DNA of 64,000 nucleotides from Escherichia phage vB_EcoM_EC001, in sequence record MN445185.1. One strand, written 5' to 3'. Below, in pieces: positions 21,534 to 45,536 of the stretch. The notes under the pieces are model-generated. The model did no database searches. It saw nothing but the letters and a program-made list of their open reading frames with translations, and was not told where the DNA came from. The position numbers and the translations under genes were made by a program. The stretch's first letter is position 1; every line of letters starts with the position of its first letter.

Positions 21534-21567
21534 TGCAAACACTCCTAATCTGTAATAAAACGGAGAC

Positions 21568-21625
21568 CGCCCTCCCAATAACGGAAGGGCGGTTTACCTA
21601 CGGACTACCCGCCCGTAGGCAGTCC
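21568..21625 (-). terminator. Hairpin region between two large minus-strand genes (possible attenuator)
   Basis: ACCGCCCT...AGGGCGGT stem (21568-21575, 21589-21596) followed on the minus strand by CTCCGTTTTATTAC. Confidence 0.4.
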
Positions 21626-21628
21626 GTC

Positions 21629-31295: not shown

Positions 31296-32228
31296 TTAGT
31301 GCGGTGTGCTAGTGTCGTTGCCCGGACCATGGCCAGTATGTACGTGAAGAGTAAAGGTGATGCCGCCGATAACCGATTCGGTAACTGTGAAAGTGCCCTT
31401 ACCTTCACCCTTGCCGTTATAGAGGAAATCTTTACCTACTTCCAGGTTACCGGTAAATAGATTCGTTGGGCATGTGGTCTTCCAGTCTTCAGTCGTCCAT
31501 GCCACGTTTTTCGACGCTGTAGAGTTGCGAGTTTCGCACTTCTCGTTAATCGTTTTTGTCTCGAGATTAATAGAACGTTTAGCATAAATGAAAGCGTCCT
31601 CTTTATTGATATTAATCTTCGACCGGCAGGCGTTTTCAAACCCTAAGTCATCCTCCGGAGAATTGAGGTAGAACTTACGCCCTTCGTCATCCACTAACTG
31701 GCAAAACCCGTCACGGGTATTCAGCTGGAGCAAATACGCGTTTTTCTCACCGTTAGTCATACTGGTACGTAGAGTAATGTGACCATCCATCGGGGAGATA
31801 TTCAGTACGTAGGCGTTAGAGAGGTCATCGGCCATCTGGTTTACTGGGTCAGCAGACCAGGCGTATACCCCATCTTCCAGTCGCTTAACGTTACTGTTGT
31901 TTAAATCTTCCCAGAAGTACATATCGGTTTCACCGATACGCCAGATTCTTACGTAGTCTTCTTTTTTCACATCCGGAGGGTTAACCCGGTTGCTGTTGGA
32001 CTTCATCCATTTTGCAGTGATGGCATTACCTTGCTTTACAGTAAGGTTGTCAGCACCACTTAAACTGTTGTGTTGCTTCTCTACAGGTGTCTCTGTTGCA
32101 TCGACAGCTGTAGGATTAATAAAGTTAACTTCGATAGGGATGACTTTAACTCGAGTGGCACCACGAGGTTTATCTTCCGCGACGATACCTATCGAGAAGA
32201 TGTGCAACCCTGACTTAGATTTATTCAT
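31296..32228 (-). CDS. Hypothetical protein with His/Gly-rich C-terminus (possible structural protein)
   Basis: 310 aa; C-terminus ...ITFTLHVHTGHGPGNDTSTPH. Confidence 0.5.
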   Translation of the reverse strand: MNKSKSGLHIFSIGIVAEDKPRGATRVKVIPIEVNFINPTAVDATETPVEKQHNSLSGADNLTVKQGNAITAKWMKSNSNRVNPPDVKKEDYVRIWRIGETDMYFWEDLNNSNVKRLEDGVYAWSADPVNQMADDLSNAYVLNISPMDGHITLRTSMTNGEKNAYLLQLNTRDGFCQLVDDEGRKFYLNSPEDDLGFENACRSKININKEDAFIYAKRSINLETKTINEKCETRNSTASKNVAWTTEDWKTTCPTNLFTGNLEVGKDFLYNGKGEGKGTFTVTESVIGGITFTLHVHTGHGPGNDTSTPH

Positions 32229-32408
32229 ACCACCCTCCTCTCATACTACACTTTTTTACGTTTCGATCTCATCGTTTGACAATCGAGGAGTGTACGGGGG
32301 TAAGGGGGTTTATGTATTGGATGCGAACATAAACGGAGGTATCCGTAGGATACCGACATCCTTTTTGTAGTTGACCTTGACTTTTAACCTAACGAGGAGT
32401 GCAGTACC

Positions 32409-32726
32409 ATGTCTTTATTTCAAACCATTAAAAGTGCATTAGAGCGTAATGATGCAGACAGTGCCTTTACTGCGTTACAGAAAGCCAGTAACGGGAAGCT
32501 AGATAGCGTCTTTGCTAACAATCAAAGAATGCGCTTTTACAAAGTCGGGGAAGTAGACCAGTTCTACAACGAACTGTTTACAGGGGTAGTGCAAAGCGCG
32601 GTATACGCCATGCCGACTGAACAACTAAGTCAGTTTGAAAAAGGGATGCGTTACCAGCGGTTAAGTAACGACTACTCATTACTGAATCTGGCTATCGATG
32701 ACTGCGTCGTACTGGTTGTATACTAA
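32409..32726 (+). CDS. Hypothetical protein
   Basis: 105 aa ORF. Confidence 0.4.
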   Translation: MSLFQTIKSALERNDADSAFTALQKASNGKLDSVFANNQRMRFYKVGEVDQFYNELFTGVVQSAVYAMPTEQLSQFEKGMRYQRLSNDYSLLNLAIDDCVVLVVY

Positions 32727-32846
32727 GTTTTTACAGATAGATGTCATCTTAGTGAGCAATGTGTATAAACCCACAGTCGCTTAAACACCAACTGTTCTTT
32801 AGTAACAGTTTTTGGTCACTTTAGTGTACTTTAAAGGAAATACCAA

Positions 32847-34085
32847 ATGTATAACGAATACGAATTAGTTTACCAGACACCGAAAGAAGCATTCTTTAAT
32901 GCAGTAATTACTAACTCAATTGTACTGTTGGGAATGCAGTTCAATATTCGGAGTATGGCTTACAGCGACGTAACGTGGCAGGATTGTGCGTGCCTGCCAC
33001 AAAAGCTCTCAACCGTTGTCGAAAAGCGGCTGCTTGACAAAGGGGAAGTAAAGTGCCGTTTAGGCCACCACGTCTCTGACTTAGCGCCGTGGGTTGAATT
33101 AACCATGACATTCGAAGGGGATTCGCGGGTAGCTTACCTATCGGGTAATCAAAACATCGGACGCGCCATTGCTGAGGGTAACACAATGTGGGTGCACTAC
33201 ATTCTTACTCTGCTGATCGATAAACCGGTGTTCGAGTTAACACCAGACATGCCTACACTAAGCGATAGCAACTGGTGGATTGGCGGAGAGCTGAATACAG
33301 GGTTTAATGAGAAATTACAAAACTTTAATTCAGAGCGACTCGATGTTGATGCGGAAGTGTTGGTGCAGCAGTTCCCCGAATTCACTGCGTACCAAATTAC
33401 TACCGTATGGAATAGAGCGGTAAGCAAGCGCAGATTCTACACGAAAAACGCACCGCGTGAAGCAGCCAAACCTGTGGAAATTGACGAAGACACCAAGGAA
33501 GCACTGCGTGATCTAGTCACCATAGCCAATGATAGCAATATGATGTTCTGGACATCTGATGAAAACGCTAACCATTATTTCGGTGAGATGTTAGACGCCG
33601 ATGTTTGGTCAGTAATGCCGATAACAGAGCCAGGAAACCTTAAAGATTACTATAAGGTCGAAAAGGATGAGGTGGTTAATGAGAAAGTCCTCACTCTTCT
33701 TGCTGTTTTCCGCGAAGTTATCCAGTCAGAAATACTGTTAAGCATCTATAAACGTAAGACCCCGGCCAGTGAAAATGACACGGCGTGGGTATTTGACTGT
33801 CGACCGACAAATACAATATCGCCTGCGTTCTGGATACAGGTGACAGGAAAGCTGCAGCGTGTGAACAGTTATGTTGTTTCTCGCCTGCCAGATTCTGAAA
33901 TGCGCTCCGTTGCCGAACCTGCTTATTTGATGTCGGCGAAGGCGGTACAGGATGCGTGGCGTACCAACGAACTGAAACAATGGCATTACGACGCTATCAT
34001 CAAATGGGGTGTTAACAATGGCTGGAAAGAAGTGACTAAGTACGGCCGTCAACTGTTGTTTGTCGCTGATTTGCGTTTACTGTAA
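32847..34085 (+). CDS. Hypothetical protein
   Basis: 412 aa ORF, RBS AAGGAAA; followed by terminator 34093..34126. Confidence 0.55.
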   Translation: MYNEYELVYQTPKEAFFNAVITNSIVLLGMQFNIRSMAYSDVTWQDCACLPQKLSTVVEKRLLDKGEVKCRLGHHVSDLAPWVELTMTFEGDSRVAYLSGNQNIGRAIAEGNTMWVHYILTLLIDKPVFELTPDMPTLSDSNWWIGGELNTGFNEKLQNFNSERLDVDAEVLVQQFPEFTAYQITTVWNRAVSKRRFYTKNAPREAAKPVEIDEDTKEALRDLVTIANDSNMMFWTSDENANHYFGEMLDADVWSVMPITEPGNLKDYYKVEKDEVVNEKVLTLLAVFREVIQSEILLSIYKRKTPASENDTAWVFDCRPTNTISPAFWIQVTGKLQRVNSYVVSRLPDSEMRSVAEPAYLMSAKAVQDAWRTNELKQWHYDAIIKWGVNNGWKEVTKYGRQLLFVADLRLL

Positions 34086-34092
34086 TCTCGTC

Positions 34093-34126
34093 ATCGGGGG
34101 TCTTGTACCCCCTTCTTATTTTTTAA
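34093..34126 (+). terminator. Intrinsic terminator
   Basis: GGGGG...CCCCC stem followed by TTCTTATTTTTT. Confidence 0.55.
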
Positions 34127-34145
34127 CCGTAAAGAGTATTTAACC

Positions 34146-34727
34146 ATGCCACAACCAATTATTGAACAACATGAAATGAACTACGAAGAACTGACCCGCC
34201 GCTATCGCGTGAAAGCCCCACGGGTAGTAGAAGGTTGCGAGAAATACAAAGAAGCAGACTTCGTGGTATTCCAACGCGAAGGTGTTCCGATGATGGTGTT
34301 CGTAAAACACGTCAGCAGCGATAACGACGACCGCCTAGTGATGCTGTATAACTTGATGGCTACCGTACTAGATACCGATATTGGACTGTTACGTCGTTAT
34401 AAATCATCCTACGAACAGAAAGCGAAGGTGGTTGCTTTTGACTTACCACGCACGGTACTAGTAGATGGTTCCCGTCCGGCTATTCTTCGTTTTACGAAAA
34501 GCGAAAGCGACAGTAACCCAGCGCATATCGTTCAGCCACTAACGCTGTCGCAAGATACGTTACAGCAGAACGGCGGGATGGATTGGCTAAACGTCATGTT
34601 ACCGGGCCTAGCTGAAGGTCAGGAACTGCATCTGGTTTGCTACACCCCATCCGTTGAGCACACCTATGCGCGTTACCTTACCGAAGAACACGGTTTCCGT
34701 AACCACCGTGGTATTTACATTGCGTAA
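34146..34727 (+). CDS. Hypothetical protein
   Basis: 193 aa ORF. Confidence 0.5.
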   Translation: MPQPIIEQHEMNYEELTRRYRVKAPRVVEGCEKYKEADFVVFQREGVPMMVFVKHVSSDNDDRLVMLYNLMATVLDTDIGLLRRYKSSYEQKAKVVAFDLPRTVLVDGSRPAILRFTKSESDSNPAHIVQPLTLSQDTLQQNGGMDWLNVMLPGLAEGQELHLVCYTPSVEHTYARYLTEEHGFRNHRGIYIA

Positions 34728-34736
34728 GGTGAGTGT

Positions 34737-35300
34737 ATGTCCCGTTTACTAGAAATTCGAAACGATATCTGGCAAGAGCAGATCCACAACGATCCAGAGT
34801 GGGAAGGAGTTGAAAGTGATTTACCGGATAACCCCGACCAGCTGTTGGTGTTCCTTTATAGCGATAAAGCCAAACAGATCAAGGGGATATTTGAACGCAA
34901 AACGACAAGCTTGTCGACCTTACTGAGCTGCATTTGCTGTGGCATCAGTGAGCTTGATCCCAATCTATTCACCAACTATCTTGCGCGTAAAGTCCGTACA
35001 CCACTACTAGAAGTTACACTCCCGCCAGATATTCGTATCAGTAAAACTGTACCGACTGTTTTGCGTTTACAGGATGTGTCTGGTAGTAGCGACGATGGGG
35101 AAACAACGATTACTCTTTCCTCGTCAGAGAGTGAACTCGCAACCAAATCGTTTCTTAGCGAAGTCGAGGCCGGATTAAAGCAGGACGTAATCGTCTATAA
35201 TCTCGGCAGTGTGCCCATTGAGCCCATTTTACACTTCTTTGAAAGCCAAACCTGCCATCTTGTAGAAAGCTTAACATACCACTTTAAAGGAGCTTTATGA
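34737..35300 (+). CDS. Hypothetical protein
   Basis: 187 aa ORF; stop overlaps the next start. Confidence 0.5.
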   Translation: MSRLLEIRNDIWQEQIHNDPEWEGVESDLPDNPDQLLVFLYSDKAKQIKGIFERKTTSLSTLLSCICCGISELDPNLFTNYLARKVRTPLLEVTLPPDIRISKTVPTVLRLQDVSGSSDDGETTITLSSSESELATKSFLSEVEAGLKQDVIVYNLGSVPIEPILHFFESQTCHLVESLTYHFKGAL

Positions 35301-35584
35301 TGAAACTCGAAGGCTACGTTGTTACTGATAAACCTTTTGCTGAAGCCAACCTGTCGCGTTCACAGGTTGTTTATAAAGACATCGATGTGCCTGCCGAAAT
35401 CGTTAAAGCGAATCCCAGCTGGCTAATCAACCACGTTTCTTTGGAAATCACCAATCCGTTTATCAACGATCCAACCGACCCATTTGTCGACATGGGTAAT
35501 TTCCGCGATATTCTTTCCCCGCATCAATACCAGACAGTGGCACAGAAGAAAGGGAAGCTGCTCATCGAAACGTTGAGTGTGTAG
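35297..35584 (+). CDS. Hypothetical protein
   Basis: 95 aa ORF; followed by terminator 35590..35630. Confidence 0.45.
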   Translation: MMKLEGYVVTDKPFAEANLSRSQVVYKDIDVPAEIVKANPSWLINHVSLEITNPFINDPTDPFVDMGNFRDILSPHQYQTVAQKKGKLLIETLSV

Positions 35585-35589
35585 TTTAT

Positions 35590-35630
35590 CTCCAGTAACC
35601 ACGAGGGTTACTGGAGTCCTCTTATTTTTT
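35590..35630 (+). terminator. Intrinsic terminator
   Basis: CTCCAGTAACC / GGTTACTGGAG 11-bp stem followed by CTTATTTTTT. Confidence 0.65.
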
Positions 35631-35663
35631 ACACTTAACTCAAATTAATTTGAGGTGTGGTAT

Positions 35664-36251
35664 ATGACAGAACGTATTTTACGACTGCAAGAGAACAGGT
35701 TAGAAGACCTGCACGTAATGCGTAGTCGCGGCTTGTTCCCAGTGGGGCTTGATGTAAGTGGGTTAATAACTTCTGCGCAGCACGGGGACAGGGTCATTAC
35801 AATGCATTCGCGTGGGAACGAAGTGGTCTCTGCGATTTTCATCGATAAGGTTATTCCGGACTCGGAAAGTGGTAAGGTAGCGGGACACATCATTTACGAA
35901 TACTTTCGCAGCATTCTATACGAGGAAAAGATAAACGTCAAAACTTTTATGGAGTACGCTAAGCGAAATAACTACATCGATGCGCGACTGATGGTCACGG
36001 AAGGCACCCCAACTATAAACGGTAAAGTCCACCATCGTTTACTTGGGGCGCAGTTGCCGAGACTGGGTGAGTTACCGACGACGATAGAGCTACACCAAAA
36101 AACAGATTGGCGACACAAAATCGAAGTGCTTCACAAGCTTTACGATTTATCGATCGTTCAAATCAAACTGGTGGACTTCACGCCTGCAAATATGCAAATC
36201 GCTAAGCGCGCATTGGGTTTTCGTATTCTTAACACAACGTTCACATTGTAA
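35664..36251 (+). CDS. Hypothetical protein
   Basis: ATG 35664 after RBS GAGGTG (the track start 35655 is a GTG inside the RBS). Confidence 0.5.
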   Translation: MTERILRLQENRLEDLHVMRSRGLFPVGLDVSGLITSAQHGDRVITMHSRGNEVVSAIFIDKVIPDSESGKVAGHIIYEYFRSILYEEKINVKTFMEYAKRNNYIDARLMVTEGTPTINGKVHHRLLGAQLPRLGELPTTIELHQKTDWRHKIEVLHKLYDLSIVQIKLVDFTPANMQIAKRALGFRILNTTFTL

Positions 36252-36302
36252 AATATCTCAGATATATATTACTTAGGTGAGAGTTAAGAGATTAACTCAA
36301 CT

Positions 36303-36332
36303 GGCTACCCTCGGGTAGCCTATTCTTTTTTA
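36303..36332 (+). terminator. Intrinsic terminator
   Basis: GGCTACC-CTCG-GGTAGCC hairpin followed by TATTCTTTTTT. Confidence 0.65.
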
Positions 36333-36356
36333 AACCAATCGACTGTAGAGCAAAAC

Positions 36357-36758
36357 ATGACTATCAAGAAGTTCTTACAAACAGTAGTAGTTCTGGCCGC
36401 ATGTGGTATCGCAGCAACTTATGCTTTCGATAAGCCAGACGTGACTGAATACGTATCAGCGGATTCCGATTACGGTATTGCACCGAATGAAAAACCGGAA
36501 CTGATGCGTGAGGTCGAACAGTTACAAATCTACAAACTGACGGATGGTAAGAACTGCACAGGGCTGGTTATCGCTGATAAGAAACTGAAAATGTATCAGC
36601 GGTTAATCGACATATCGTGCGATCAACCAAAAGTCACCTCGGTCAGTGTATCGCCGTTGGAATTGCCAGATCTGGTTGCTGTGAGTTTTTATCACAACGA
36701 TGTGCTCGTTGGTCGCATCACCCTCAATCGTGGAGATATCAAAAATGAAATGCAATAA
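36357..36758 (+). CDS. Secreted/lipoprotein-like small protein, first of a four-gene exported array
   Basis: N-terminal signal peptide with possible lipobox LAAC; two Cys in the mature part. Confidence 0.55.
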   Translation: MTIKKFLQTVVVLAACGIAATYAFDKPDVTEYVSADSDYGIAPNEKPELMREVEQLQIYKLTDGKNCTGLVIADKKLKMYQRLIDISCDQPKVTSVSVSPLELPDLVAVSFYHNDVLVGRITLNRGDIKNEMQ

Positions 36759-37236
36759 CGTTAATCGCCACTTGGCCAAAGTGGTGCTTTTTACTGTGCT
36801 GTTGATGGCACTTGTTGTTGGGCTACGGATTTCTAAGGCACACGCTGACGAATTCAGCGGGTTCCAGGGCAGTATTAACGGCAGCATTCCAGCATATACC
36901 CGCACCATCAATCTTAATGATAAGCCGTTCTGGTGCAATGCGCGTAAGCTGCTTAAGAAACAGTGTCGTGTAGTTGACATATCCTTCAACGGTCGTGTCG
37001 CTATCGTACACCGTCCGGGCGATAAAGATTGCCCAGGTGGTTGGTGGGGTGCAGTCGACCGTCACAACGGTGACGCGTTATGGCTTATCCCTAATCGTGA
37101 TGAACTATCAGTGGAGAAAATTTGCAGCAAAGATTTCAGGGCCGGTTTTGTACAGCGACCGGATACCAAAACTCTGGCCTCCATCGCTATGTACTACGGT
37201 ATGGAAACCATCAAAACAATCGACTATTCAGAATAA
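36745..37236 (+). CDS. Secreted small Cys-containing protein (paralog family)
   Basis: Start at internal ATG after GGAG; signal peptide MKCNNVNRHLAKVVLFTVLLMALVVGLRISKAHA; FWC...C...CPGG motif. Confidence 0.55.
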   Translation: MKCNNVNRHLAKVVLFTVLLMALVVGLRISKAHADEFSGFQGSINGSIPAYTRTINLNDKPFWCNARKLLKKQCRVVDISFNGRVAIVHRPGDKDCPGGWWGAVDRHNGDALWLIPNRDELSVEKICSKDFRAGFVQRPDTKTLASIAMYYGMETIKTIDYSE

Positions 37237-37258
37237 CTCAAAAAATTGAGGTGCTATT

Positions 37259-37669
37259 ATGAAACATTTTTTATTACCAGTTTTACTTGCTACTCTGGCC
37301 ATTAGCTTCTTCGCTCGCGCTGGAAGTATCGAGTTACCAAAAGTTGTTAACGATCACGAATACGGCGGACAGTTCTGGTGCCAGAACTCTGACGTACAAG
37401 GCGGTAGCTGCCAGATCGTTGCGATGTCCGATAACAACCGTTACCTGTTAGTGAAAACGATGGGCGGTGTCGCATGTGGCGACCCTGAATACGGGGTTAT
37501 TAACATGGCAACCGGGCAAGCCGAATCCATGAACTACAATGATAACCAAGCCTGTAGCGGTGAAGCCGTTGCTGAGTTTACACGCGACCCAGGCGACAAT
37601 GCCCTGACGGTTATCATGTACGACCCTACGATTAAGAAAAACGTAGGCATCAATAAACTCGACTTTTAA
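37259..37669 (+). CDS. Secreted small Cys-containing protein (paralog family)
   Basis: Signal peptide MKHFLLPVLLATLAISFFARA; FWCQ...C...CGD motif similar to the previous gene. Confidence 0.6.
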   Translation: MKHFLLPVLLATLAISFFARAGSIELPKVVNDHEYGGQFWCQNSDVQGGSCQIVAMSDNNRYLLVKTMGGVACGDPEYGVINMATGQAESMNYNDNQACSGEAVAEFTRDPGDNALTVIMYDPTIKKNVGINKLDF

Positions 37670-37682
37670 GTAAGGAAACAAC

Positions 37683-38066
37683 ATGCGTGGATTTATGGGT
37701 ATTATCGCGGCGGTGTTCTTGACCGCTTCCGCTTCAGCTACAACCAGCGTAGAAGATTTACTGCCAGGCACACCGTATCAGTACAACCCGCCTTCATTCG
37801 AAGTCTGTACTGGCGACGATGGCAGATGTGAAGAAGTCAGCCGTCACGACGAGTATATCCTGGTCCACGCAAAGGGCGAAGAAACTTGTCCTGCAGGTTA
37901 CTACTTTCTGTTGAACTCAAAGGCACAAGAGATTGTGCCGGTAGAGACAATAACGTGCGACCCGACGCTTCGCGCGTCGCTCGCTTACAATACGAAAACC
38001 AAACAGCGCCTCCTGGTTATTGAACAACAAGGCGAAGTGCGTGGTTCAATAGCGCTCGACCAGTAA
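37683..38066 (+). CDS. Secreted small Cys-containing protein (paralog family)
   Basis: Signal peptide MRGFMGIIAAVFLTASASA; C...C...CPAG...C pattern. Confidence 0.6.
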   Translation: MRGFMGIIAAVFLTASASATTSVEDLLPGTPYQYNPPSFEVCTGDDGRCEEVSRHDEYILVHAKGEETCPAGYYFLLNSKAQEIVPVETITCDPTLRASLAYNTKTKQRLLVIEQQGEVRGSIALDQ

Positions 38067-38078
38067 CCGAAAAGTTTT

Positions 38079-38096
38079 CAGACAGATGTTATAACG
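38079..38096 (+). promoter_or_regulatory. Recurrent intergenic motif CAGACAGATGTTATAACG followed by a hairpin
   Basis: Motif copy 34 nt upstream of GTG 38130; hairpin GTGAGATG...CATCTCAC immediately downstream. Confidence 0.25.
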
Positions 38097-38195
38097 TGAG
38101 ATGACGACCCATCTCACTTTGGCCCTGCGGTGATTTCCCCAACACTTAGCCGCAGGGTCCTTTTTAATCGACTATTACTCGTAAGGATTAAGCAA

Positions 38196-38696
38196 ATGAA
38201 CATGAACATTCTCGACGATACCCGTTCTTCTTTCTTTACTCAGATGAACGTTAACCCTGAACGTACCCGTGCTATTCTTTCTACTGGTTGGAAGTTGAAG
38301 TTGTTAGGCGAGTTAACCCTCAATCGCACCGACTGGCCAGCAGAAGCAACCGTACTGATTAACAGCATCCACAGCGAATGGTTAGATGCTGCGTTGAATG
38401 CCCCACAGCTACGTCCGTACTACCGGATGCTTCACGCGGGATATGAAGTATACCGCAAAGGTTGGTACGATGCAGCCACTTATTGCAAAACCCCTGAAGG
38501 TCGTGAAGACAACACTGTCGACCACGTATTAGTGAATAACTTCTGGGGAGACCAAATTGAGGTCTTACAACTCTCTACCGGTGACCGTATTCCGGCCTGT
38601 GAGTTATTCGAAACTAACGCACAAATGTACGAACCGTATGCAATGATTCGTGGCCATAAGGTCCCAATCATTTCCCTTATGCATATGGGGCTGTAA
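38196..38696 (+). CDS. Hypothetical protein
   Basis: ATG 38196 after RBS AAGGA; the in-frame GTG 38130 (track start) is an alternative. Confidence 0.5.
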   Translation: MNMNILDDTRSSFFTQMNVNPERTRAILSTGWKLKLLGELTLNRTDWPAEATVLINSIHSEWLDAALNAPQLRPYYRMLHAGYEVYRKGWYDAATYCKTPEGREDNTVDHVLVNNFWGDQIEVLQLSTGDRIPACELFETNAQMYEPYAMIRGHKVPIISLMHMGL

Positions 38697-38702
38697 ATAC
38701 GA

Positions 38703-38733
38703 GAGGTAGCCTACGGGCTACCTTCTTTTTTTG
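38703..38733 (+). terminator. Intrinsic terminator
   Basis: GGTAGCC-TACG-GGCTACC hairpin followed by TTCTTTTTTT. Confidence 0.65.
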
Positions 38734-38750
38734 TTGAAGAAGGATTAAAC

Positions 38751-39377
38751 ATGAACGAGATTACCCTGATTCGTTTCATCGACGATATGGTGACGTGTCA
38801 GAAAGCGAATCGTCAGGATACCAAACTGCGTATCAATCTGATGGAAGAAGAGGTAGAAGGGTTTCTGGAATACCCGCGATTGGTGAAGTGGTTTAAAGAA
38901 GCACTGCCGCGTAGCTGGGAACAGCTAGAAGCGTGGTTTGCTCTACCTATTGCAGAACGTAATCCCAATAATACGATCTTCACCGGAACTACTGCATTAG
39001 ATTTGGCTGGTTCGGTGGAGCAACCTAAACGTTTAGTTTTCTTCTACGTCAATGGCGATTCAATAATGGCTGATACAGTTAACTGGATTTCTGATGAGTT
39101 AACTGTAAACACCACATTGGTCGGTAGCGCTGCTGATGCCTGGGTTGTTGGTCAGCACCAATCGCAGCCGTACGAAGAAATCAAAACCGGTTATTTAATC
39201 CCGATATATCTCGACGGCGTGGCACCGGGTCGTAGTGCCGAACTGTTCAAATTCCTGCTTACTGAAACGTTAAAGGTTGTCGATTCTGATGCTGGTCGGG
39301 CGTGGTATGAATTAACCAAAGAGCGCACCGACAGTTTCTGGGAATCACTCGGCCACCGTAAGTTTACTCCGCAATAA
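38751..39377 (+). CDS. Hypothetical protein
   Basis: 208 aa ORF with RBS AAGGA; no phosphoesterase (Mre11/SbcD) motifs seen. Confidence 0.5.
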   Translation: MNEITLIRFIDDMVTCQKANRQDTKLRINLMEEEVEGFLEYPRLVKWFKEALPRSWEQLEAWFALPIAERNPNNTIFTGTTALDLAGSVEQPKRLVFFYVNGDSIMADTVNWISDELTVNTTLVGSAADAWVVGQHQSQPYEEIKTGYLIPIYLDGVAPGRSAELFKFLLTETLKVVDSDAGRAWYELTKERTDSFWESLGHRKFTPQ

Positions 39378-39388
39378 CTCTCCTCTCT

Positions 39389-39421
39389 GGAACCCTTCGG
39401 GGTTCCATTTCTTCTTTTTTA
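39389..39421 (+). terminator. Intrinsic terminator
   Basis: GGAACCC-TTCG-GGGTTCC hairpin followed by ATTTCTTCTTTTTT. Confidence 0.7.
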
Positions 39422-39473
39422 CGCATGACCTTTTGGATATGAACGACTAATACTTTCTCATTAGAAGGCAAAC

Positions 39474-41984
39474 ATGCTCAAGGTCGAACGTATCATTTTG
39501 AAAGGATTTACCGGCATGGGGTTACATGAAATCGAAACGTTTGATTTCACCCTCAAGTCCACCGTTACCATCATCCTCGGCGGTAACGGCTGCGGTAAAA
39601 CAAGCCTCCTATCTGTTTTTCTCCCCATAGCTCCAGCAAAATCTGAATTCCGTGAAGGTGGTTCTTACACTAACTACGCGTTAGTCGGGGACGACCGTCT
39701 TAAGTTTGAAGTCCTGCGTCGTGGGTCTTCTCTGTCTTGTAGTATCTTCAACATCACTAAAGGTGTTTCCGTCGTAGACTCGGTAAACGCCAAAGTTTAC
39801 AACTCCATGGTGGAGCAATTAACCGGAATCACCAAAGAAATCAAAGAGTTAATTAATGGTGAGACCTTATTAACTGACGCCACTACCGAAGTTCGTCGTA
39901 AATGGTTTACGTTAATGTCAGAATCTGATCTGACGTACGTTGTTGGTTGTTATCGTCGTCTGCGTAAACTCGCTTCCAGTTTAAGTGGGGCCATTGAGCA
40001 CACCGGCCGTAAAATCGGTGAGGCAAAAATGCGCGTGGTGGACGATGAAGAAGATCGTGCACGTTTGGAAGTTCGTTTGAAAGAACTGGACGTTGAGCTT
40101 CAGGAACTAAACCGCACCATTGAAGCGAGACCCGGTTTAGATAACGCCGTTTCGGTTGATAGTATCCGGAAACGCATTGCTTCGTTGCAACCGGCTGTAA
40201 AACTCATTATGGAGCGTTATGGTGTTCTGCCTTCTGACGAACTGATTAACGAGTTTCAAAGTCGTGTAGTTGCCTGGCGTGAGCAAGCTGCCTCTGCTGA
40301 AACTGAATGCAACATGTACAATAAAGAGTTGTCACAGCTACTGGATGAGGAGTCGCGTCAAGCGTATCTGATGCGCAACCATACCGGTCTAAAACAAACA
40401 ATCGACAGCTTAAAACAGGAACTGGCAACGTTCCAACAGAACTGGATGTTCCCGGCTCTGTTTGAAGGTACCCGCATCGATGTGGATAGCATTCAGAACG
40501 CGTTAAACGATGCCTGTAACTGGAATTTACCGTTGTCCATGCATCTGGACCAGTTAAAGACAACAGAGCGCCTGGGAGCGTTAGAGAAGCGTTTACAGGG
40601 TATGGATTTAACCTCTGCGGGTCTATCTGAAAAGCTGCAACGTTGTGAGAATGTGCTACACGGTTTATACCACGACCGTCAACACTTCTTAGAAACTGCA
40701 GAAGTTGATTGTCCACAGTGTAACCACCGTTTCCGTCCTGGGATTCGTAAGTCGTTACCTGAAATTGAAAAGGCCATCAACGATAATGAAGGTTGGAAGA
40801 AGCAGCTGAAAGACGAAATGGATAGTCTTTTGCGTGACCGCAAAGAGATTGAAGAGGACGTCCGTAGCTTACGTACGATTCGCGAAATCGTCATGTCGTA
40901 TTCCAATCATCCCGTTGTCGGTTTGTTTTTCCGTAAACTGCAGGAGCTGGATATCTTCACCACGGCGCGGGATCGTTACGGTGCCATTGCACGTGCCTTT
41001 ACTGAAGAGTTAGATTCGGCCATGATGTATCTGCGTCAATCGGCGAAGCTTGCAACAGCGGAACGGGAATGGCAAGAGGCTGTTGCCGCAGTAGGTAACG
41101 TTGATGGTGCGCTGAGCCAGAAAATTGAACATATCCGTTCACAACTGGATGGGGCTAACCGTCGACTGATAGAATACCGCAGACAAGCCAATGAGCTGGA
41201 ACGCGAAACCACCCAACTGCAACAAACCAAAGAAGCAATCGAACGTTTCCAAAAGGGCTACGAACATCTGGTATCGGAAATGAACATCTCCGTTAACAAC
41301 GTCGTGGTTCGCGAGTTGTTAAACCGACGCGAAGCGAAGCTCGATGCGTATACTTCCGCTCGTGAACGGTTTCGTCAAATGGAAGGGGCTATTGCACGTT
41401 TAGCGGAACTGGAAAAAGAGCAAGCTGAATTGCTTAAAGAGCATCACCATGCCAGATTGATTATCAATGCCGTCTCACCCGAAAAAGGATTATTGCGTCG
41501 TTACTTTTATGCTGCGATTACCCGCATCATGGATTTAATGAATCGGTATATCGAAATGGTGTGGGCATATCCGATGCAGGTTATTCCATGCGATCTAACC
41601 GACGGGGATTTGGATTATACTTTCCCGGTACGATTAAAAGACCATGAAGAACTGGTGCCGGATGTGAAGAAAGGTTCGAAGGCACAGCGTATTATCTTTA
41701 ACATGATGTTTCGTTTAACGGCGTATAAAGCGCTTGGTTTACAAAACTATCCTTTGTTATTGGATGAACCCTCTGAAGGCATGGATGAGGAACACAAAAA
41801 TCGACTGGTCAACTTCATTAAATCGTTGGCGTTGTCGGGAGAGTTTTCTCAATTGCTGGTCGTTTCGCATGAAGCGGAAGTTCATTCTAAACTTAACGAA
41901 GCCACCTACTGTGTCGTGGAGCCAGAAGGTGTAACGCTTCCACCGGTTTATAACGAAGGGGTAATAATCAAATATGCATCATAA
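39474..41984 (+). CDS. Rad50/SbcC-family ATPase with coiled coil and central CxxC zinc hook
   Basis: N-terminal Walker A GGNGCGKTS; central CPQC in the middle of a long coiled-coil-like region; C-terminal Walker B LLLDEPSEGMD and H-loop VVSHE. Confidence 0.8.
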   Translation: MLKVERIILKGFTGMGLHEIETFDFTLKSTVTIILGGNGCGKTSLLSVFLPIAPAKSEFREGGSYTNYALVGDDRLKFEVLRRGSSLSCSIFNITKGVSVVDSVNAKVYNSMVEQLTGITKEIKELINGETLLTDATTEVRRKWFTLMSESDLTYVVGCYRRLRKLASSLSGAIEHTGRKIGEAKMRVVDDEEDRARLEVRLKELDVELQELNRTIEARPGLDNAVSVDSIRKRIASLQPAVKLIMERYGVLPSDELINEFQSRVVAWREQAASAETECNMYNKELSQLLDEESRQAYLMRNHTGLKQTIDSLKQELATFQQNWMFPALFEGTRIDVDSIQNALNDACNWNLPLSMHLDQLKTTERLGALEKRLQGMDLTSAGLSEKLQRCENVLHGLYHDRQHFLETAEVDCPQCNHRFRPGIRKSLPEIEKAINDNEGWKKQLKDEMDSLLRDRKEIEEDVRSLRTIREIVMSYSNHPVVGLFFRKLQELDIFTTARDRYGAIARAFTEELDSAMMYLRQSAKLATAEREWQEAVAAVGNVDGALSQKIEHIRSQLDGANRRLIEYRRQANELERETTQLQQTKEAIERFQKGYEHLVSEMNISVNNVVVRELLNRREAKLDAYTSARERFRQMEGAIARLAELEKEQAELLKEHHHARLIINAVSPEKGLLRRYFYAAITRIMDLMNRYIEMVWAYPMQVIPCDLTDGDLDYTFPVRLKDHEELVPDVKKGSKAQRIIFNMMFRLTAYKALGLQNYPLLLDEPSEGMDEEHKNRLVNFIKSLALSGEFSQLLVVSHEAEVHSKLNEATYCVVEPEGVTLPPVYNEGVIIKYAS

Positions 41985-42165
41985 AGGTTGGCGCTTATGG
42001 GCTTGGTGGGGTTTTCAGTTCCTTCAGTTTGTTGTGATGGTACTGTACCTCTCCTTTTGTGCAACCGTAGTGGTTATCGCTGCGGTCGTTTATTTAGCTG
42101 CTGCTCTTAAAGAACGTCTGTTCGACACGCGTTGTGAGTGGCGAGATATAGGAGAACGGACATGA
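41974..42165 (+). CDS. Small hydrophobic membrane protein
   Basis: 63 aa; hydrophobic stretch FQFLQFVVMVLYLSFCATVVVIAAVVYLAAAL. Confidence 0.4.
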   Translation: MHHKGWRLWAWWGFQFLQFVVMVLYLSFCATVVVIAAVVYLAAALKERLFDTRCEWRDIGERT

Positions 42166-42266
42166 TTGAAGGTATCGTATTAACCGGTATTGCACTGTGG
42201 TTGATTCGTGGTGCCTGGGGTTGGATTATCCGCACGAAAGGATGGGCATTCCATGGCAAGACGTAA
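42162..42266 (+). CDS. Small hydrophobic peptide (34 aa)
   Basis: ATG preceded by GGAGAA; MIEGIVLTGIALWLIRGAWGWII...; below the ORF-track length cutoff, my own translation. Confidence 0.35.
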   Translation: MIEGIVLTGIALWLIRGAWGWIIRTKGWAFHGKT

Positions 42267-42444
42267 ACCTGGTCGTTTAAAGTTTTGGGCAGTTGTGGTA
42301 ATGCACACTGTGGTGCTACTCGGTATTTTCATGTCTCGCGCTACGCCTGCCTTTTGGGGCTTAGTTGTTTTGGTGTTCTTAGAAGGGGTTTACTTCGGTA
42401 ATCTGTGGAGCAAGCCCCCCGCGTTTAAGGGACCCGGCTTATGA
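42253..42444 (+). CDS. Small hydrophobic membrane protein
   Basis: Start at internal ATG (MARRKPGRLKFWAVVVMHTVVLLGIFM...); one or two TM-like segments. Confidence 0.4.
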   Translation: MARRKPGRLKFWAVVVMHTVVLLGIFMSRATPAFWGLVVLVFLEGVYFGNLWSKPPAFKGPGL

Positions 42445-42572
42445 CAGTCGTGAATAGTGTCAACGCAGCCATGATTGCAACAGGTGCGTATGATGGTGCC
42501 ACCTGGACAGACCTTGGCATTACGATTATCATCTGTGCAATCGGAGCATTTCTGGCATCATGGTTATTTTAG
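42441..42572 (+). CDS. Small hydrophobic peptide (43 aa)
   Basis: ATGA start/stop overlap with the previous gene; ...LGITIIICAIGAFLASWLF; my own translation. Confidence 0.35.
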   Translation: MTVVNSVNAAMIATGAYDGATWTDLGITIIICAIGAFLASWLF

Positions 42573-43110
42573 TGAAGTGGGTTGGGTGTATCATCTGTAG
42601 CCTGGTACTAGGAGCAGGCGCATACGCCCTAGGCGCAATCCTTGCATTGACGCAAGGTTGGTTTTAACAGGAGGGTAATTACGAAGTGGGAGAAGTATCA
42701 TGTAACAGTGAAACAGTCTCTGATCCCGTGGTCGTGGGTTCAGGGGCGGCCGTGCCAACCCGGCGTATCGTTCTTTCGAGCGCGGGGATGGCTATAGGGT
42801 CTTCAAAGAACCTTCTAGCAGACATCGCGGAAGTCTGCGGGCCGGATGATTTTGCAGTTTCACGTACAGTCGGGGAAGACTGGCGTGGTAATCAGAAGCG
42901 CCATGAGCGAATGTGGCGACGGAAGGTTACCTCAGCATCGCAGCGTTTTCAACGACGTTGTTGATCAAAGACACGGTTCCGATAGAGAACTGGTCTTTAC
43001 CTGCAGCGGTATACACCGCTTAAGTTTACCGGTAAACTTAAGAAAACACAAACGCAATTCTTCGTTACTCGCTTTCATCGCAGGTGAAAGCTCACTTAGG
43101 AATTCAGCTC

Positions 43111-43599
43111 ATGGCCGAAATTGTCATTCTTTCCTCATCCTCAGATTTAACGGAAGCACAAAATAAACAGCTGTTGGGGCTGCATTATAAATTTCTGAAC
43201 CACCAACGTACCATACTCCATATCGAAAAAGGTGAGATTCCGAACCTCACTCTGGAGAAACTGTTGGCGGGGAACCGTGCTTGTGTTGCTCTGGAAGGGG
43301 GTACCCCTGTTGGTTACTGTTTGTATCGCGTAATCGCTGGGGTTCTGAAGATTCGTACGATGTTCGTGTCTGAAATGGCACGCCGTCGTAAAACGATGAC
43401 GCAGATTTTTGATGCGCTTGATGTGAATGAACGGTTCACCAGTGCGCATGGGGGAATATACGCTTGCCAGGAAGCTGGTATTGCGTTCTTTACCGCTCGC
43501 GGTTTTGACAAGACCGTCTCTACAGACGGACAATGGCTTGAATTTAAGAAGCAGGTTCCTGCGGAAGCAGATGAACCTTTAAGGACTGCGGTAGCGTAG
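43111..43599 (+). CDS. Hypothetical protein, weakly GNAT-acetyltransferase-like
   Basis: Start at MAEIVILSS; C-terminal ...AGIAFFTARGFDKT resembles a GNAT motif B; the Q/RxxGxG motif A is not convincing. Confidence 0.3.
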   Translation: MAEIVILSSSSDLTEAQNKQLLGLHYKFLNHQRTILHIEKGEIPNLTLEKLLAGNRACVALEGGTPVGYCLYRVIAGVLKIRTMFVSEMARRRKTMTQIFDALDVNERFTSAHGGIYACQEAGIAFFTARGFDKTVSTDGQWLEFKKQVPAEADEPLRTAVA

Positions 43600-43670
43600 T
43601 CCTGTTTTAGCACTCCTTACGATTATGCCTCACTATGAGTGGGGTATTTTTTACGCGAGGAGTGCTATTT

Positions 43671-43880
43671 ATGTTTCACCGTCCTGGGTTTTCAGCTTTA
43701 AACACCGATGTCTGTTGGGCTGAGTACGAACGGGCGAAGGAGTTCTTACCCGTAAATCCAAAACACATCAACGTGGGTACTATCGGGCGTGTTGCGTTTG
43801 ATGATACTCCGCTGAGTACGTGTATTAAAGCAGCGCTTGGTACGCTGCCGGCGTCTATAGTTATTGAGGAATTAAAATGA
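43671..43880 (+). CDS. Hypothetical small protein
   Basis: ATG after RBS GAGGAG; stop overlaps the next start. Confidence 0.4.
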   Translation: MFHRPGFSALNTDVCWAEYERAKEFLPVNPKHINVGTIGRVAFDDTPLSTCIKAALGTLPASIVIEELK

Positions 43881-44395
43881 CGGACATTCGTGTTGACATA
43901 TATGGGGAAATTCATACCACGGCCGATCGTAATCGTGTTGAATGGGCGATCATCGATAACCATCGGAAAAAACCATACGATTTTTTACTGTGTGAAGAAC
44001 TGGGGCCGTATGAATATCACACTGCAAAAGCGCAAGATAAGGCATTAAAGGAGAAGATGTACTCTATTGGGCCCATGGGGCTGGAGTTGGCTAAGAAACT
44101 CGGCATCCCTGCTATTGGGATCGATGACTGGAGCGATGCAACCTACGCTAAAGATATCAAGGATAAAAAGGGAAGGGCTGTAAACTTTAGCCGTTCTTTT
44201 TATATTCGTGAAGCTAAAATGGTTGAAAAAATTAAAAAGTATATGGCAAAAGGACGTTGTGCTGTTATGCTCGGCGACTCACACTTGCGCACCACGAAAA
44301 CCAAAGAGCTTGGTGGTGCGTCCCTTATCTGGGAAACATTTAAGGATAATCCTGAAGTGAAGTTTCACAGGAGCCCTAAACGCGAGATTGATTAA
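43877..44395 (+). CDS. Hypothetical protein
   Basis: 172 aa ORF. Confidence 0.5.
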   Translation: MTDIRVDIYGEIHTTADRNRVEWAIIDNHRKKPYDFLLCEELGPYEYHTAKAQDKALKEKMYSIGPMGLELAKKLGIPAIGIDDWSDATYAKDIKDKKGRAVNFSRSFYIREAKMVEKIKKYMAKGRCAVMLGDSHLRTTKTKELGGASLIWETFKDNPEVKFHRSPKREID

Positions 44396-45035: not shown

Positions 45036-45536
45036 ATGTCACTAGAACTGATCGACGAGGCCGTTATCTCCCACGACCTGTTTAACGCGCCTGAGCGCTT
45101 CAAGGTCGTTACAGTTAACTGTGTTGGTGCAATGGGAAGGGGCATTGCTTTGGCGTGCCGAGAACGCTTCCCATCGCTTTATAATGACTATCGCCAGAAA
45201 TGTCGTAAAGAGCAAATCGTTATCGGTGAGGTCTATTGTTATCCTGAGGAAGGGGTAATACTCCTTCCTACTAAAACCCATTTTCGCTATAAATCGCAGA
45301 TTTACTATGTCACGTCCGGCATTGATGCGCTGGCGCGACTAGGGGAAGACTTAGAAGGAGGGATTGCGATACCGCCCCTAGGGATGGCTAACGGTTGGTT
45401 ACGTTACCATGAGCGATTGGAAATCTTTATACACTTACAGAAACGACTACAGCACACGGAGCAGACTTATCGATTCTATTTACCGGACACATTGCTAAGG
45501 GAAGCAGAGAAAATCATCCCAAAAAGTTTCAAATAG
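45036..45536 (+). CDS. Macro-domain-like protein (putative ADP-ribose binding/hydrolase)
   Basis: FKVVTVNCVGAMGRGIALACRERFP resembles the macro-domain core V(V)NAAN..L.GGGV.GAI followed by a basic/aromatic segment; by-eye only. Confidence 0.45.
   Translation: MSLELIDEAVISHDLFNAPERFKVVTVNCVGAMGRGIALACRERFPSLYNDYRQKCRKEQIVIGEVYCYPEEGVILLPTKTHFRYKSQIYYVTSGIDALARLGEDLEGGIAIPPLGMANGWLRYHERLEIFIHLQKRLQHTEQTYRFYLPDTLLREAEKIIPKSFK

What the first reader, a model, noticed from the sequence alone, without database searches (positions are those of the whole stretch)
39474..41984. Orphan Rad50/SbcC-like ATPase with zinc hook and no adjacent Mre11/SbcD nuclease
The 836-aa protein has Walker A, a central CPQC hook within a long helical region, and Walker B/H-loop at the C-terminus, the canonical Rad50/SbcC layout. 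No phosphoesterase-motif (D.H, GD, GNHD) protein is encoded next to it or anywhere in this window. The nuclease partner is either distant or replaced.
Basis: partly seen in the sequence, partly recalled or inferred. Interest (0 to 1): 0.45.

Follow-up and report, generated by a model that had tools for sequence, protein, structure and literature searches.

The report
Jumbo-phage SbcC gene, partner encoded far away
This is the already described SbcC/Rad50-type DNA-end-processing ATPase of an SPN3US-like Salmonella jumbo phage; its SbcD/Mre11 nuclease partner is not missing but encoded about 147 kb away, an arrangement published in 2016, so the finding is ordinary.

Summary
An 836-aa ORF at 39474-41984 (+) carries a Walker A motif, a central CPQC, and signature, Walker B, D-loop and H-loop motifs. 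Its predicted structure is head, coiled coil, hook, coiled coil, head, and the best solved-structure match is Rad50. No SbcD/Mre11 is encoded anywhere in the 64-kb window.

The protein is not an orphan. The window is 96-98% identical to SPN3US-like Salmonella jumbo phages (Seoulvirus, phiKZ-related), and the ORF is the homolog of SPN3US gp186. Complete relatives carry one SbcD-like gene about 147 kb away (SPN3US 21020-22168). That gene keeps all five phosphoesterase motifs, and its model matches E. coli SbcD and Mre11 structures. The SbcC-like and SbcD-like genes occur in about 290-297 jumbo-phage records with nearly the same host distribution, and they lie 82-168 kb apart in every record listed in both searches.

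Thomas et al. 2016 (PMC5105663) already showed by amber mutation that gp186 is essential. They named gp27 as its SbcD and described the two genes as "drastically separated" in SPN3US and phiKZ.

Verdict: already known, low interest. The remaining caveat is that the rest of this window's own genome could not be inspected.

The parts
39474..41984 (+). SbcC/Rad50-like ABC ATPase gene (836 aa), homolog of SPN3US gp186 and phiKZ orf165
   Evidence: ORF confirmed. PHROG 77 'SbcC-like subunit', E=1.4e-95. 96-98% nucleotide identity to Seoulvirus records. Best Foldseek match in the PDB is Rad50, E=2e-20.
39579..39602 (+). Walker A / P-loop, GGNGCGKT (aa 36-43)
   Evidence: Located. N38, G39, G41 and K42 are invariant across distant homologs.
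39924..40694 (+). Ascending helical (coiled-coil) arm, aa 151-407, with short breaks
   Evidence: Secondary structure of the AlphaFold2 model.
40710..40721 (+). CPQC, the presumed zinc hook, at the apex (aa 413-416)
   Evidence: Located. C413, P414 and C416 are invariant in alignments A1 and A3. It lies in the 20-residue non-helical apex of the model.
40755..41474 (+). Descending helical (coiled-coil) arm, aa 428-667
   Evidence: Secondary structure of the AlphaFold2 model.
41676..41687 (+). ABC signature-like motif, SKAQ (aa 735-738); distant homologs have SGGE at this position
   Evidence: hhalign places it opposite the LSGGE of E. coli SbcC.
41754..41786 (+). Walker B LLLDE (aa 761-765) and D-loop SEGMD (aa 767-771)
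   Evidence: Located. D764, E765 and D771 are invariant.
41859..41873 (+). H-loop / switch, VVSHE (aa 796-800)
   Evidence: Located. S798 and H799 are invariant.
39388..39407 (+). Terminator-like GC-rich hairpin followed by a T-run, between the upstream ORF (ends 39377) and the SbcC start. It suggests that the gene starts a new transcription unit.
   Evidence: Consensus scan and sequence. This is a pattern match only.
41974..42165 (+). 63-aa hydrophobic ORF (SPN3US gp187 homolog) that overlaps the SbcC stop codon by 11 nt. It may be translationally coupled to SbcC. A functional link is speculative.
   Evidence: Thomas et al. 2016 noted it.

Best explanation
The ORF encodes the SbcC/Rad50-type ATPase subunit of the phage's own SbcCD (Mre11-Rad50-like) DNA-end-processing complex. 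The phage is an SPN3US-like, phiKZ-related Salmonella jumbo phage. Inferred mechanism, by homology to E. coli SbcCD, T4 gp46/47 and archaeal or eukaryotic Mre11-Rad50: two ATPase heads engage on ATP binding and clamp DNA. The roughly 250-residue antiparallel coiled coils end in a CPxC hook that pairs two protomers through a shared zinc ion. A dimer of the SbcD/Mre11 phosphoesterase docks on the heads and coiled-coil base and cuts DNA ends and hairpins. This feeds recombination-dependent replication together with the UvsX-like recombinase encoded in the same window (59511-61004). The nuclease subunit is encoded in trans, about 147 kb away in complete relatives (SPN3US gp27, 21020-22168). Such scattering of functionally linked genes is typical of phiKZ-like genomes. 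Shown here: the gene, its motifs, its fold class, and the existence and family membership of the distal SbcD. Shown in the literature: the gene is essential in SPN3US. Inferred only: physical complex formation, zinc binding and nuclease activity.
For: Identity of the window: 96-98% nucleotide identity to SPN3US, SPLA3, SPFM and JN03 phages. SbcC assignment: PHROG 77 at E=1.4e-95; phmmer and profile hits to P. furiosus, M. jannaschii and C. thermophilum Rad50 as the best PDB matches; NCBIfam Rad50 models at E down to 1.4e-15, below their curated cut-offs. The AlphaFold2 model (pLDDT 81.6) has the head, coil, hook, coil, head layout, and its top Foldseek hits are Rad50 chains of 7zr1 at E=2e-20. 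CPxC and all ATPase motifs are invariant down to about 20% identity. hhalign aligns the signature-to-H-loop region with E. coli SbcC. Partner: an SbcD-like gene is present in SPLA3 (PHROG 100 at E=1e-52) and is intact at 383 aa in SPN3US and other relatives. The residues DxH, GD, G-T-P-S-H-D, H180 and G-H-D-H are conserved. The family profile hits T. maritima Mre11 3qg5 at E=6.6e-12 and E. coli SbcD. 22 of 32 family members hit Pfam Metallophos. The model (pLDDT 90.9) has only SbcD/Mre11 structures among its top 20 Foldseek hits, led by E. coli SbcD 4lty at E=4e-13, with about a 1000-fold E-value gap to other phosphoesterases. hhalign against E. coli SbcD gives probability 94.8% over 327 columns with motifs I, II, III and V aligned. 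Co-occurrence: the SbcD-like gene is in 289 phage records and the SbcC-like gene in 297, with nearly identical host-genus counts and one copy per record; the two lie 82-168 kb apart in every record listed in both searches. Literature: gp186 is essential by amber mutation, gp27 is named as its SbcD, and the genes are 'drastically separated' in SPN3US and phiKZ (PMC5105663). phiKZ orf165 is a core gene with an antisense knock-down phenotype (PMC12571901) and no transposon insertions (PMC12676376). SbcC and SbcD are near-universal in jumbo phages (PMC7824862).
Against: Only 64 kb of this genome is available. The exact protein is not in the contig index, so the presence of SbcD in this particular genome is inferred from relatives. 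No biochemical or structural demonstration of an SbcC-SbcD complex exists for any phiKZ-like phage in the papers read. Curated thresholds of Pfam SMC_N and the NCBIfam Rad50 models are not reached, and on its own the SPN3US-type SbcD matches neither Pfam nor the PDB. The signature motif is degenerate (SKAQ). The residue I tentatively place at the Q-loop position is Asn rather than Gln; that placement rests on my own recollection of the Rad50 sequence and was not tested. Knock-down of phiKZ orf165 gave only a mild phenotype.
Confidence: 0.9

Rival explanations
1. The ATPase really is partner-independent. It would act without SbcD, for example as an SMC-like organiser or tether of replicating phage DNA in the phage nucleus, or with a different nuclease. 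The distal SbcD-like gene would serve another role.
For: The genes are never adjacent in this phage family. [quoted passage not shown] Condensin, Smc5/6 and MukB are strong structural matches after Rad50. No complex has been demonstrated.
Against: The apex is a 20-residue CPxC hook, not an SMC hinge. Rad50 is the best match by both sequence and fold. The two genes co-occur in nearly the same set of about 290 genomes, one copy each. Every characterised CxxC-hook Rad50/SbcC works with an Mre11/SbcD (established knowledge of the family).
Confidence: 0.05
2. This particular phage has lost or inactivated its SbcD gene, so in this genome the ATPase is an orphan.
For: The rest of the genome cannot be seen. 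One close relative record, SPLA3, carries an exact 91-bp tandem duplication that frameshifts its SbcD gene.
Against: 22 records have the SbcC protein at 95% identity or more, and the same number have the SbcD protein at 95% or more. SbcD is inferred to be essential. The SPLA3 duplication is a perfect repeat and looks like an assembly artefact.
Confidence: 0.03
3. The protein is a Lamassu LmuB-like or other defence-type SMC-like ATPase (JetC, DndD, PtuA or AriA class), carried by the phage for conflict with hosts or rival phages.
For: PADLOC LmuB models match at E=5.6e-20 (70 bits), and JetC and DndD match weakly. Lamassu and Wadjet structures appear among the Foldseek hits.
Against: The match to the phage SbcC family is far stronger (323 bits). 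No LmuA, JetABD or other effector gene is found among the neighbours. The gene is a vertically inherited, syntenic core gene of the family and is essential for phage growth. The PADLOC hits are what generic Rad50/SMC homology would produce.
Confidence: 0.02

Closest known systems
SPN3US gp186 (SbcC subunit) with gp27 (SbcD); phiKZ orf165
   Same: Orthologous. About 96% nucleotide and about 99% amino-acid identity to Seoulvirus homologs. Same length (836 aa), same motifs, same neighbours, and the same large separation from SbcD (PMC5105663).
   Different: Nothing of substance. The window is a slightly divergent isolate, 2-4% different at the nucleotide level, and no record is identical to it.
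T4 gp46/gp47 (phage Rad50/Mre11)
   Same: A phage-encoded Rad50-like ATPase with a CxxC hook plus an Mre11-like nuclease. The T4 genes are essential and act in recombination-dependent replication and end processing (established knowledge).
   Different: The T4 genes are clustered, and gp46 is 560 aa with a shorter coiled coil. No BLASTP-level similarity is reported. Here the genes are about 147 kb apart and the inter-head region is about 300 residues longer.
E. coli SbcCD
   Same: Same two-subunit architecture. The SbcD-like family profile aligns with E. coli SbcD over 327 columns at probability 94.8%, with the catalytic motifs matched, and E. coli SbcD is the best structural match. The SbcC C-terminal lobe also aligns.
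   Different: E. coli sbcD and sbcC form one operon with overlapping reading frames, and SbcC is 1048 aa. The phage signature motif is SKAQ rather than LSGGE. Motif III of the phage SbcD is GTPSHD rather than GNHD.
Archaeal and eukaryotic Rad50 (P. furiosus; C. thermophilum 7zr1)
   Same: These are the best sequence and fold matches. The head, antiparallel coiled coil and CxxC hook layout is shared.
   Different: Only 9-14% identity in the structural alignments. There is no evidence here for an Nbs1-like third subunit.
SMC, MukB, JetC and Lamassu LmuB
   Same: ABC-type heads joined by a long antiparallel coiled coil. All give significant Foldseek or PADLOC matches.
   Different: There is no hinge domain. 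The apex is a short CPxC hook, and no kleisin, KITE or effector genes lie nearby.

Membership tests
Rad50/SbcC | N-terminal Walker A P-loop in ABC lobe I | tested here: met
   GGNGCGKT at aa 36-43. Invariant across homologs. Beta-rich lobe in the model.
Rad50/SbcC | C-terminal signature motif, Walker B, D-loop and H-loop in ABC lobe II | tested here: met
   SKAQ, LLLDE, SEGMD and VVSHE are present. The region aligns to E. coli SbcC LSGGE...DE...SH and to Pfu Rad50. The signature is degenerate in this clade and is SGGE in distant homologs.
Rad50/SbcC | Long antiparallel coiled coil inserted between the two head halves | tested here: met
   Helices span aa 151-407 and aa 428-667 in the AlphaFold2 model, pLDDT 81.6. 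This is a prediction, not an experiment.
Rad50/SbcC | CxxC zinc hook at the coiled-coil apex, in place of an SMC hinge | tested here: met
   CPQC at aa 413-416 is the only CxxC in the protein and sits in a 20-residue apex. C-P-x-C is invariant down to about 20% identity. Zinc binding itself cannot be tested here.
Rad50/SbcC | Q-loop glutamine | not tested
   From memory of the Pfu Rad50 sequence (RQGE), I tentatively place the Q-loop at I-N-G-E, aa 127-130. That would put Asn128 at the Gln position, with Thr, Ser or Leu there in distant homologs. No tool-based alignment covered this region.
Rad50/SbcC | Significant similarity to bona fide members, stronger than to other SMC-like families | tested here: met
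   PHROG 77 at E=1.4e-95. Rad50 is the top hit in PDB sequence, PDB profile and Foldseek searches. However, the scores are below the curated cut-offs of Pfam SMC_N and of the NCBIfam Rad50 equivalog models.
Rad50/SbcC | A cognate Mre11/SbcD nuclease encoded in the same genome | tested here: met
   Met in complete relatives at 96-98% identity: SPN3US 21020-22168, SPFM17, SEGD1 and others. It could not be tested for the window's own genome.
Rad50/SbcC | Adjacent or operonic arrangement with the nuclease gene (typical of the family, not defining) | tested here: not met
   No SbcD in the 64-kb window. The separation is 82-168 kb in all phiKZ-like records compared.
Rad50/SbcC | ATP-dependent DNA binding and stimulation of nuclease activity | not testable with these tools
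   Requires biochemistry.
Mre11/SbcD (the distal partner, outside the window) | Five calcineurin-type phosphoesterase motifs (DxH, GD, GNHD/E, H, GHxH) | tested here: met
   D22/H24, G57/D58, G97-T-P-S-H101-D102, H180 and G211-H212-D-H214 are conserved in 32 sequences. They align with the E. coli SbcD motifs. Motif III is the variant GTPSHD.
Mre11/SbcD (the distal partner, outside the window) | Mre11-type fold (phosphoesterase plus capping domain), distinct from other metallophosphatases | tested here: met
   The model has pLDDT 90.9. Its top 20 Foldseek hits are all SbcD or Mre11, E=4e-13 to 3e-8; LpxH, purple acid phosphatase and the Pol delta B subunit follow only at E of 1e-5 or weaker. 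The family profile hits Mre11 3qg5 at E=6.6e-12.
Mre11/SbcD (the distal partner, outside the window) | C-terminal Rad50-binding helices | tested here: inconclusive
   The model has C-terminal helices at aa 356-363 and 371-381. The alignments extend to T. maritima Mre11 residue 369 of 379 and E. coli SbcD residue 379 of 400. No complex model was run.
SMC proper (condensin, MukB or JetC type) | Globular hinge dimerisation domain at the coiled-coil apex | tested here: not met
   The apex is about 20 residues and holds CPQC.
Lamassu LmuB | Operon with an LmuA effector (and LmuC) | tested here: not met
   The neighbours are small phage ORFs with no effector domain. The PADLOC LmuB match is 70 bits, against 323 bits for the phage SbcC family.

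The most novel reading that the evidence does not exclude
The SbcC-like ATPase of nucleus-forming jumbo phages might have a function beyond the canonical SbcCD complex. It could, for example, be anchored through the co-translated small hydrophobic proteins just downstream (41974-42444), or act on DNA inside the phage nucleus independently of the distally encoded SbcD. Its extra roughly 300 coiled-coil residues and the consistent unlinking of the two genes could be signs of such a role.
Probability: 0.07. Interest if true: 0.45.

Novelty: already known. Interest (0 to 1): 0.07.

Why it matters
It matters little as a discovery. The gene, its assignment, its essentiality and its separation from SbcD are published for SPN3US and phiKZ, and public records annotate it as 'SbcC-like subunit' or 'SMC domain-containing protein'. 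The practical lesson is that, in phiKZ-like jumbo phages, the absence of a partner gene from a 64-kb window says nothing about its absence from the genome, because functionally linked genes are routinely scattered. The questions still open are where the complex acts relative to the phage nucleus, whether the small membrane proteins downstream interact with it, and what the long coiled coil is for. All of these need experiments.

Tried and rejected
- **Neighbouring proteins.** Pfam and PHROG scans of ten neighbours looked for a hidden nuclease and found none. The protein annotated 'phosphatase' in relatives (window 45036-45536) is a macro-domain protein, not a metallophosphoesterase.
- **Single-sequence searches with the SPN3US-type SbcD.** Searches against Pfam and the PDB returned nothing. 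The annotated SPLA3 SbcD protein lacks motif I because a 91-bp duplication frameshifts the gene. A 32-sequence profile and a structure model were needed to settle family membership.
- **Exact-sequence look-up of the window protein.** This was meant to find the window's own contig and test for SbcD on it. The protein is not on record.
- **Defence-system reading.** PADLOC gave only generic SMC-like matches to LmuB, JetC and DndD, so this reading was rejected.
- **hhalign against E. coli SbcC.** The family profile aligned only the C-terminal lobe, at 86% probability. The coiled coil and N-terminal lobe are too divergent for a single-sequence template.
- **RNA and promoter scans.** tRNA and Rfam scans of the window found nothing. 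The sigma-70 promoter scan was uninformative, with fewer hits than in shuffled sequence, as expected for a phage that uses its own RNA polymerases.
Full report
**1. The observation**

The window holds a single 836-aa ORF at 39474..41984 on the + strand.
- Walker A, GGNGCGKT, aa 36-43
- CPQC, aa 413-416, the only CxxC in the protein
- a signature-like SKAQ, aa 735-738
- Walker B, LLLDE, aa 761-765
- D-loop, SEGMD, aa 767-771
- H-loop, VVSHE, aa 796-800

An AlphaFold2 model built on 26 homologs has mean pLDDT 81.6. It shows a beta-rich N-terminal lobe, helices over aa 151-407, a 20-residue non-helical apex that carries CPQC, helices over aa 428-667, and a C-terminal lobe.

Ten neighbouring proteins have no phosphoesterase domain. 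tblastn with the family's SbcD and a five-motif regular expression find nothing in the window, although the regular expression does match the SbcD control. A profile HMM of the SbcD-like family against all 502 six-frame segments of at least 50 aa gives a best E-value of 0.15.

**2. What the window is**

Megablast places the gene, and a 24-kb stretch around it, at 96-98% identity to Salmonella jumbo phages of the genus Seoulvirus: SPN3US, SPLA3, the SPFM phages, JN03 and SEGD1. These genomes are about 240 kb and phiKZ-related. In them the gene is annotated 'SbcC-like subunit of palindrome specific endonuclease' or 'putative SMC domain-containing protein'. No record is identical to the window, and the exact protein is not in the contig index. 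The window is therefore a slightly divergent isolate of a known species group.

**3. Family of the ATPase**

- PHROG 77 (SbcC-like) matches end to end at E=1.4e-95.
- Pfam gives only sub-threshold SMC_N and AAA_15 hits.
- NCBIfam Rad50 models match at E down to 1.4e-15 but below their curated cut-offs.
- In the PDB the best sequence and profile hits are Rad50 chains from P. furiosus, M. jannaschii and C. thermophilum.
- The best Foldseek matches are the Rad50 chains of the C. thermophilum MRN complex at E=2e-20. Condensin, Smc5/6, MukB, Lamassu LmuB and JetC follow.

Two features separate the protein from SMC proper: the short CPxC apex, and the absence of a hinge domain. In an alignment with homologs from a phiKZ-like Pseudomonas phage (PA02), phiHQ, and Ralstonia, Aeromonas, Vibrio and Erwinia RisingSun phages (18-22% identity), C413, P414, C416 and the catalytic residues of Walker A, Walker B, the D-loop and the H-loop are invariant. 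The distant members carry the canonical SGGE signature. PADLOC gives a 70-bit LmuB match. I read this as generic Rad50/SMC homology, because the phage SbcC family match is 323 bits and no effector gene lies nearby.

**4. The partner**

The complete SPLA3 genome (98% identical across the gene) has an 'SbcD-like subunit' gene at about 32.7-33.9 kb. Its SbcC-like gene is at 179.8-182.3 kb. In SPN3US the SbcD-like gene is intact at 21020-22168 (383 aa) and the SbcC-like gene is at 168900-171410.

On its own this protein hits neither Pfam nor the PDB, so I tested it further:
- PHROG 100 (SbcD-like) matches at E=1e-52.
- A 32-sequence alignment conserves D22/H24, G57/D58, G97-T-P-S-H101-D102, H180 and G211-H212-D-H214, which are the five phosphoesterase motifs.
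- 22 of the 32 members match Pfam Metallophos.
- The family profile hits T. maritima Mre11 at E=6.6e-12 nearly end to end, and also hits E. coli SbcD and P. furiosus Mre11.
- hhalign against E. coli SbcD gives 94.8% probability over 327 columns, with motifs I, II, III and V in register.
- An AlphaFold2 model (pLDDT 90.9) has only SbcD or Mre11 structures in its top 20 Foldseek hits. E. coli SbcD 4lty leads at E=4e-13, and there is roughly a thousand-fold E-value gap to LpxH, purple acid phosphatases and the Pol delta B subunit.

The distal gene is therefore a genuine SbcD/Mre11.

**5. Distribution**

tblastn finds the SbcC-like protein in 297 phage records and the SbcD-like protein in 289. The host-genus counts are almost identical: Pseudomonas 81/81, Erwinia 62/62, Serratia 21/21, Aeromonas 19/19, Klebsiella 16/16 and Ralstonia 13/13. 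Each record has one copy of each gene. 22 records have each protein at 95% identity or more. The surplus of Salmonella SbcC records comes from SPFM records that give only fragmentary matches.

In every record listed in both searches the two genes are 82-168 kb apart. Examples are SEGD1 146 kb, CR5 138 kb, PA02 and PA7 112 kb, VP4B 95 kb, RisingSun 82 kb and pAEv1810 83 kb.

Local synteny around the SbcC gene is conserved. In six distant relatives the gene lies directly next to a divergently transcribed baseplate protein gene, whose product is homologous to window ORF 31296-32228 (-) at E=1e-22 to 2e-33. In two of them an SLT transglycosylase gene follows. In the window about 7.2 kb of small + strand ORFs separates the baseplate gene from the SbcC gene.

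**6. Literature**

Thomas et al. [quoted passage not shown] They infer that gp27 is the SbcD subunit and that phiKZ ORF165 is the homolog. [quoted passage not shown] They also describe the split ABC domains, the inter-domain region of more than 600 residues, and the 63-aa transmembrane ORF (gp187) just downstream.

Iyer et al. 2021 (PMC7824862) call SbcC plus SbcD 'practically universally conserved' in jumbo phages. phiKZ orf165 is listed as a core 'SbcC-like nuclease' with an antisense knock-down phenotype (PMC12571901), and it tolerates no transposon insertions (PMC12676376).

**7. Mechanism**

By homology, the protein is the ATPase and DNA-clamp subunit of a phage Mre11-Rad50-type complex. 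ATP-driven head engagement, a zinc-hook-linked coiled coil and an SbcD dimer together process DNA ends and hairpins. This would feed recombination-dependent replication alongside the UvsX-like recombinase (window 59511-61004) and the RuvC-like resolvase found elsewhere in the genome.

The gene anatomy, the family membership of both subunits and their co-occurrence are shown here. Essentiality is shown in the literature. Complex formation, zinc binding, nuclease activity and subcellular location are inferred only.

**8. Verdict**

The arrangement is already published. The residual uncertainty is that the rest of this isolate's genome is unseen. Novelty: already known. Interest: low.

Noticed in passing
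L002 (SPLA3, OR413581.1) 32782-32963: The SbcD-like gene of SPLA3 carries an exact 91-bp tandem duplication (two 100% identical copies). It frameshifts the gene into a 71-aa ORF, which holds the DxH motif, and a 353-aa ORF. Other relatives have one intact 383-aa ORF. This is probably an assembly artefact; otherwise SPLA3 would be a natural SbcD mutant of a presumably essential gene.
   Followed up: partly
window 41974-42165, 42162-42266, 42253-42444 (+): Three small, strongly hydrophobic ORFs (63, 34 and 63 aa) follow the SbcC gene. Their start and stop codons overlap: the first overlaps the SbcC stop by 11 nt, and the next junction is ATGA. The layout suggests a translationally coupled cluster of membrane peptides. 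Thomas et al. noted only the first one (gp187).
   Followed up: partly
window 32229-39473 compared with L006-L011: In six distant phiKZ-like phages the SbcC-like gene abuts a divergently transcribed baseplate protein gene. In the window, about 7.2 kb holding roughly a dozen small + strand ORFs of unknown function (PHROGs with no annotation) lies between the two. This looks like a Seoulvirus-lineage insertion.
   Followed up: partly
GenBank records OQ383623.1 (MET_P1_082_240) and MT679221.1 (Proteus phage 7): In these records the SbcC-like ATPase gene is annotated 'nuclease SbcCD subunit D'. This is a mis-annotation that could mislead automated searches for the partner.
   Followed up: no
window 45036-45536 (+): This 166-aa protein is labelled 'phosphatase' in PHROG-based annotation (phrog_335). 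It is a macro-domain protein (Pfam Macro, E=2e-4, just under the cut-off). It is the only 'phosphatase' in the window and is unrelated to Mre11.
   Followed up: yes
window 38703-38724 and 39388-39407 (+): GC-rich hairpins followed by T-runs sit directly after two consecutive small ORFs upstream of the SbcC gene. Terminator-like sites in 38000-43200 number 12, against 5.6 +/- 1.8 in shuffled sequence. This suggests many short transcription units.
   Followed up: no
window aa 127-130 of the SbcC-like protein (nt 39852-39863): The residue I tentatively place at the Q-loop glutamine of Rad50 is Asn128 (I-N-G-E). In distant homologs it is Thr, Ser or Leu. This may be a family-wide departure from the canonical Q-loop. 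It rests on a remembered Pfu Rad50 sequence and was not tested with a tool alignment.
   Followed up: no
SPFM1, SPFM5, SPFM6, SPFM7, SPFM9, SPFM12, SPFM15, SPFM20 records (LR5359xx): For both the SbcC and SbcD proteins these records give high bit scores but aligned coverage of only about 4-25%. This suggests many ambiguous or erroneous residues in these assemblies, which inflates apparent gene-content differences within the genus.
   Followed up: no
window 42001-44000: This interval has the strongest GC skew (+0.142) and the most negative AT skew (-0.098) in the window. It coincides with the hydrophobic small-ORF cluster and a stretch with few ORFs (42445-42845).
   Followed up: no
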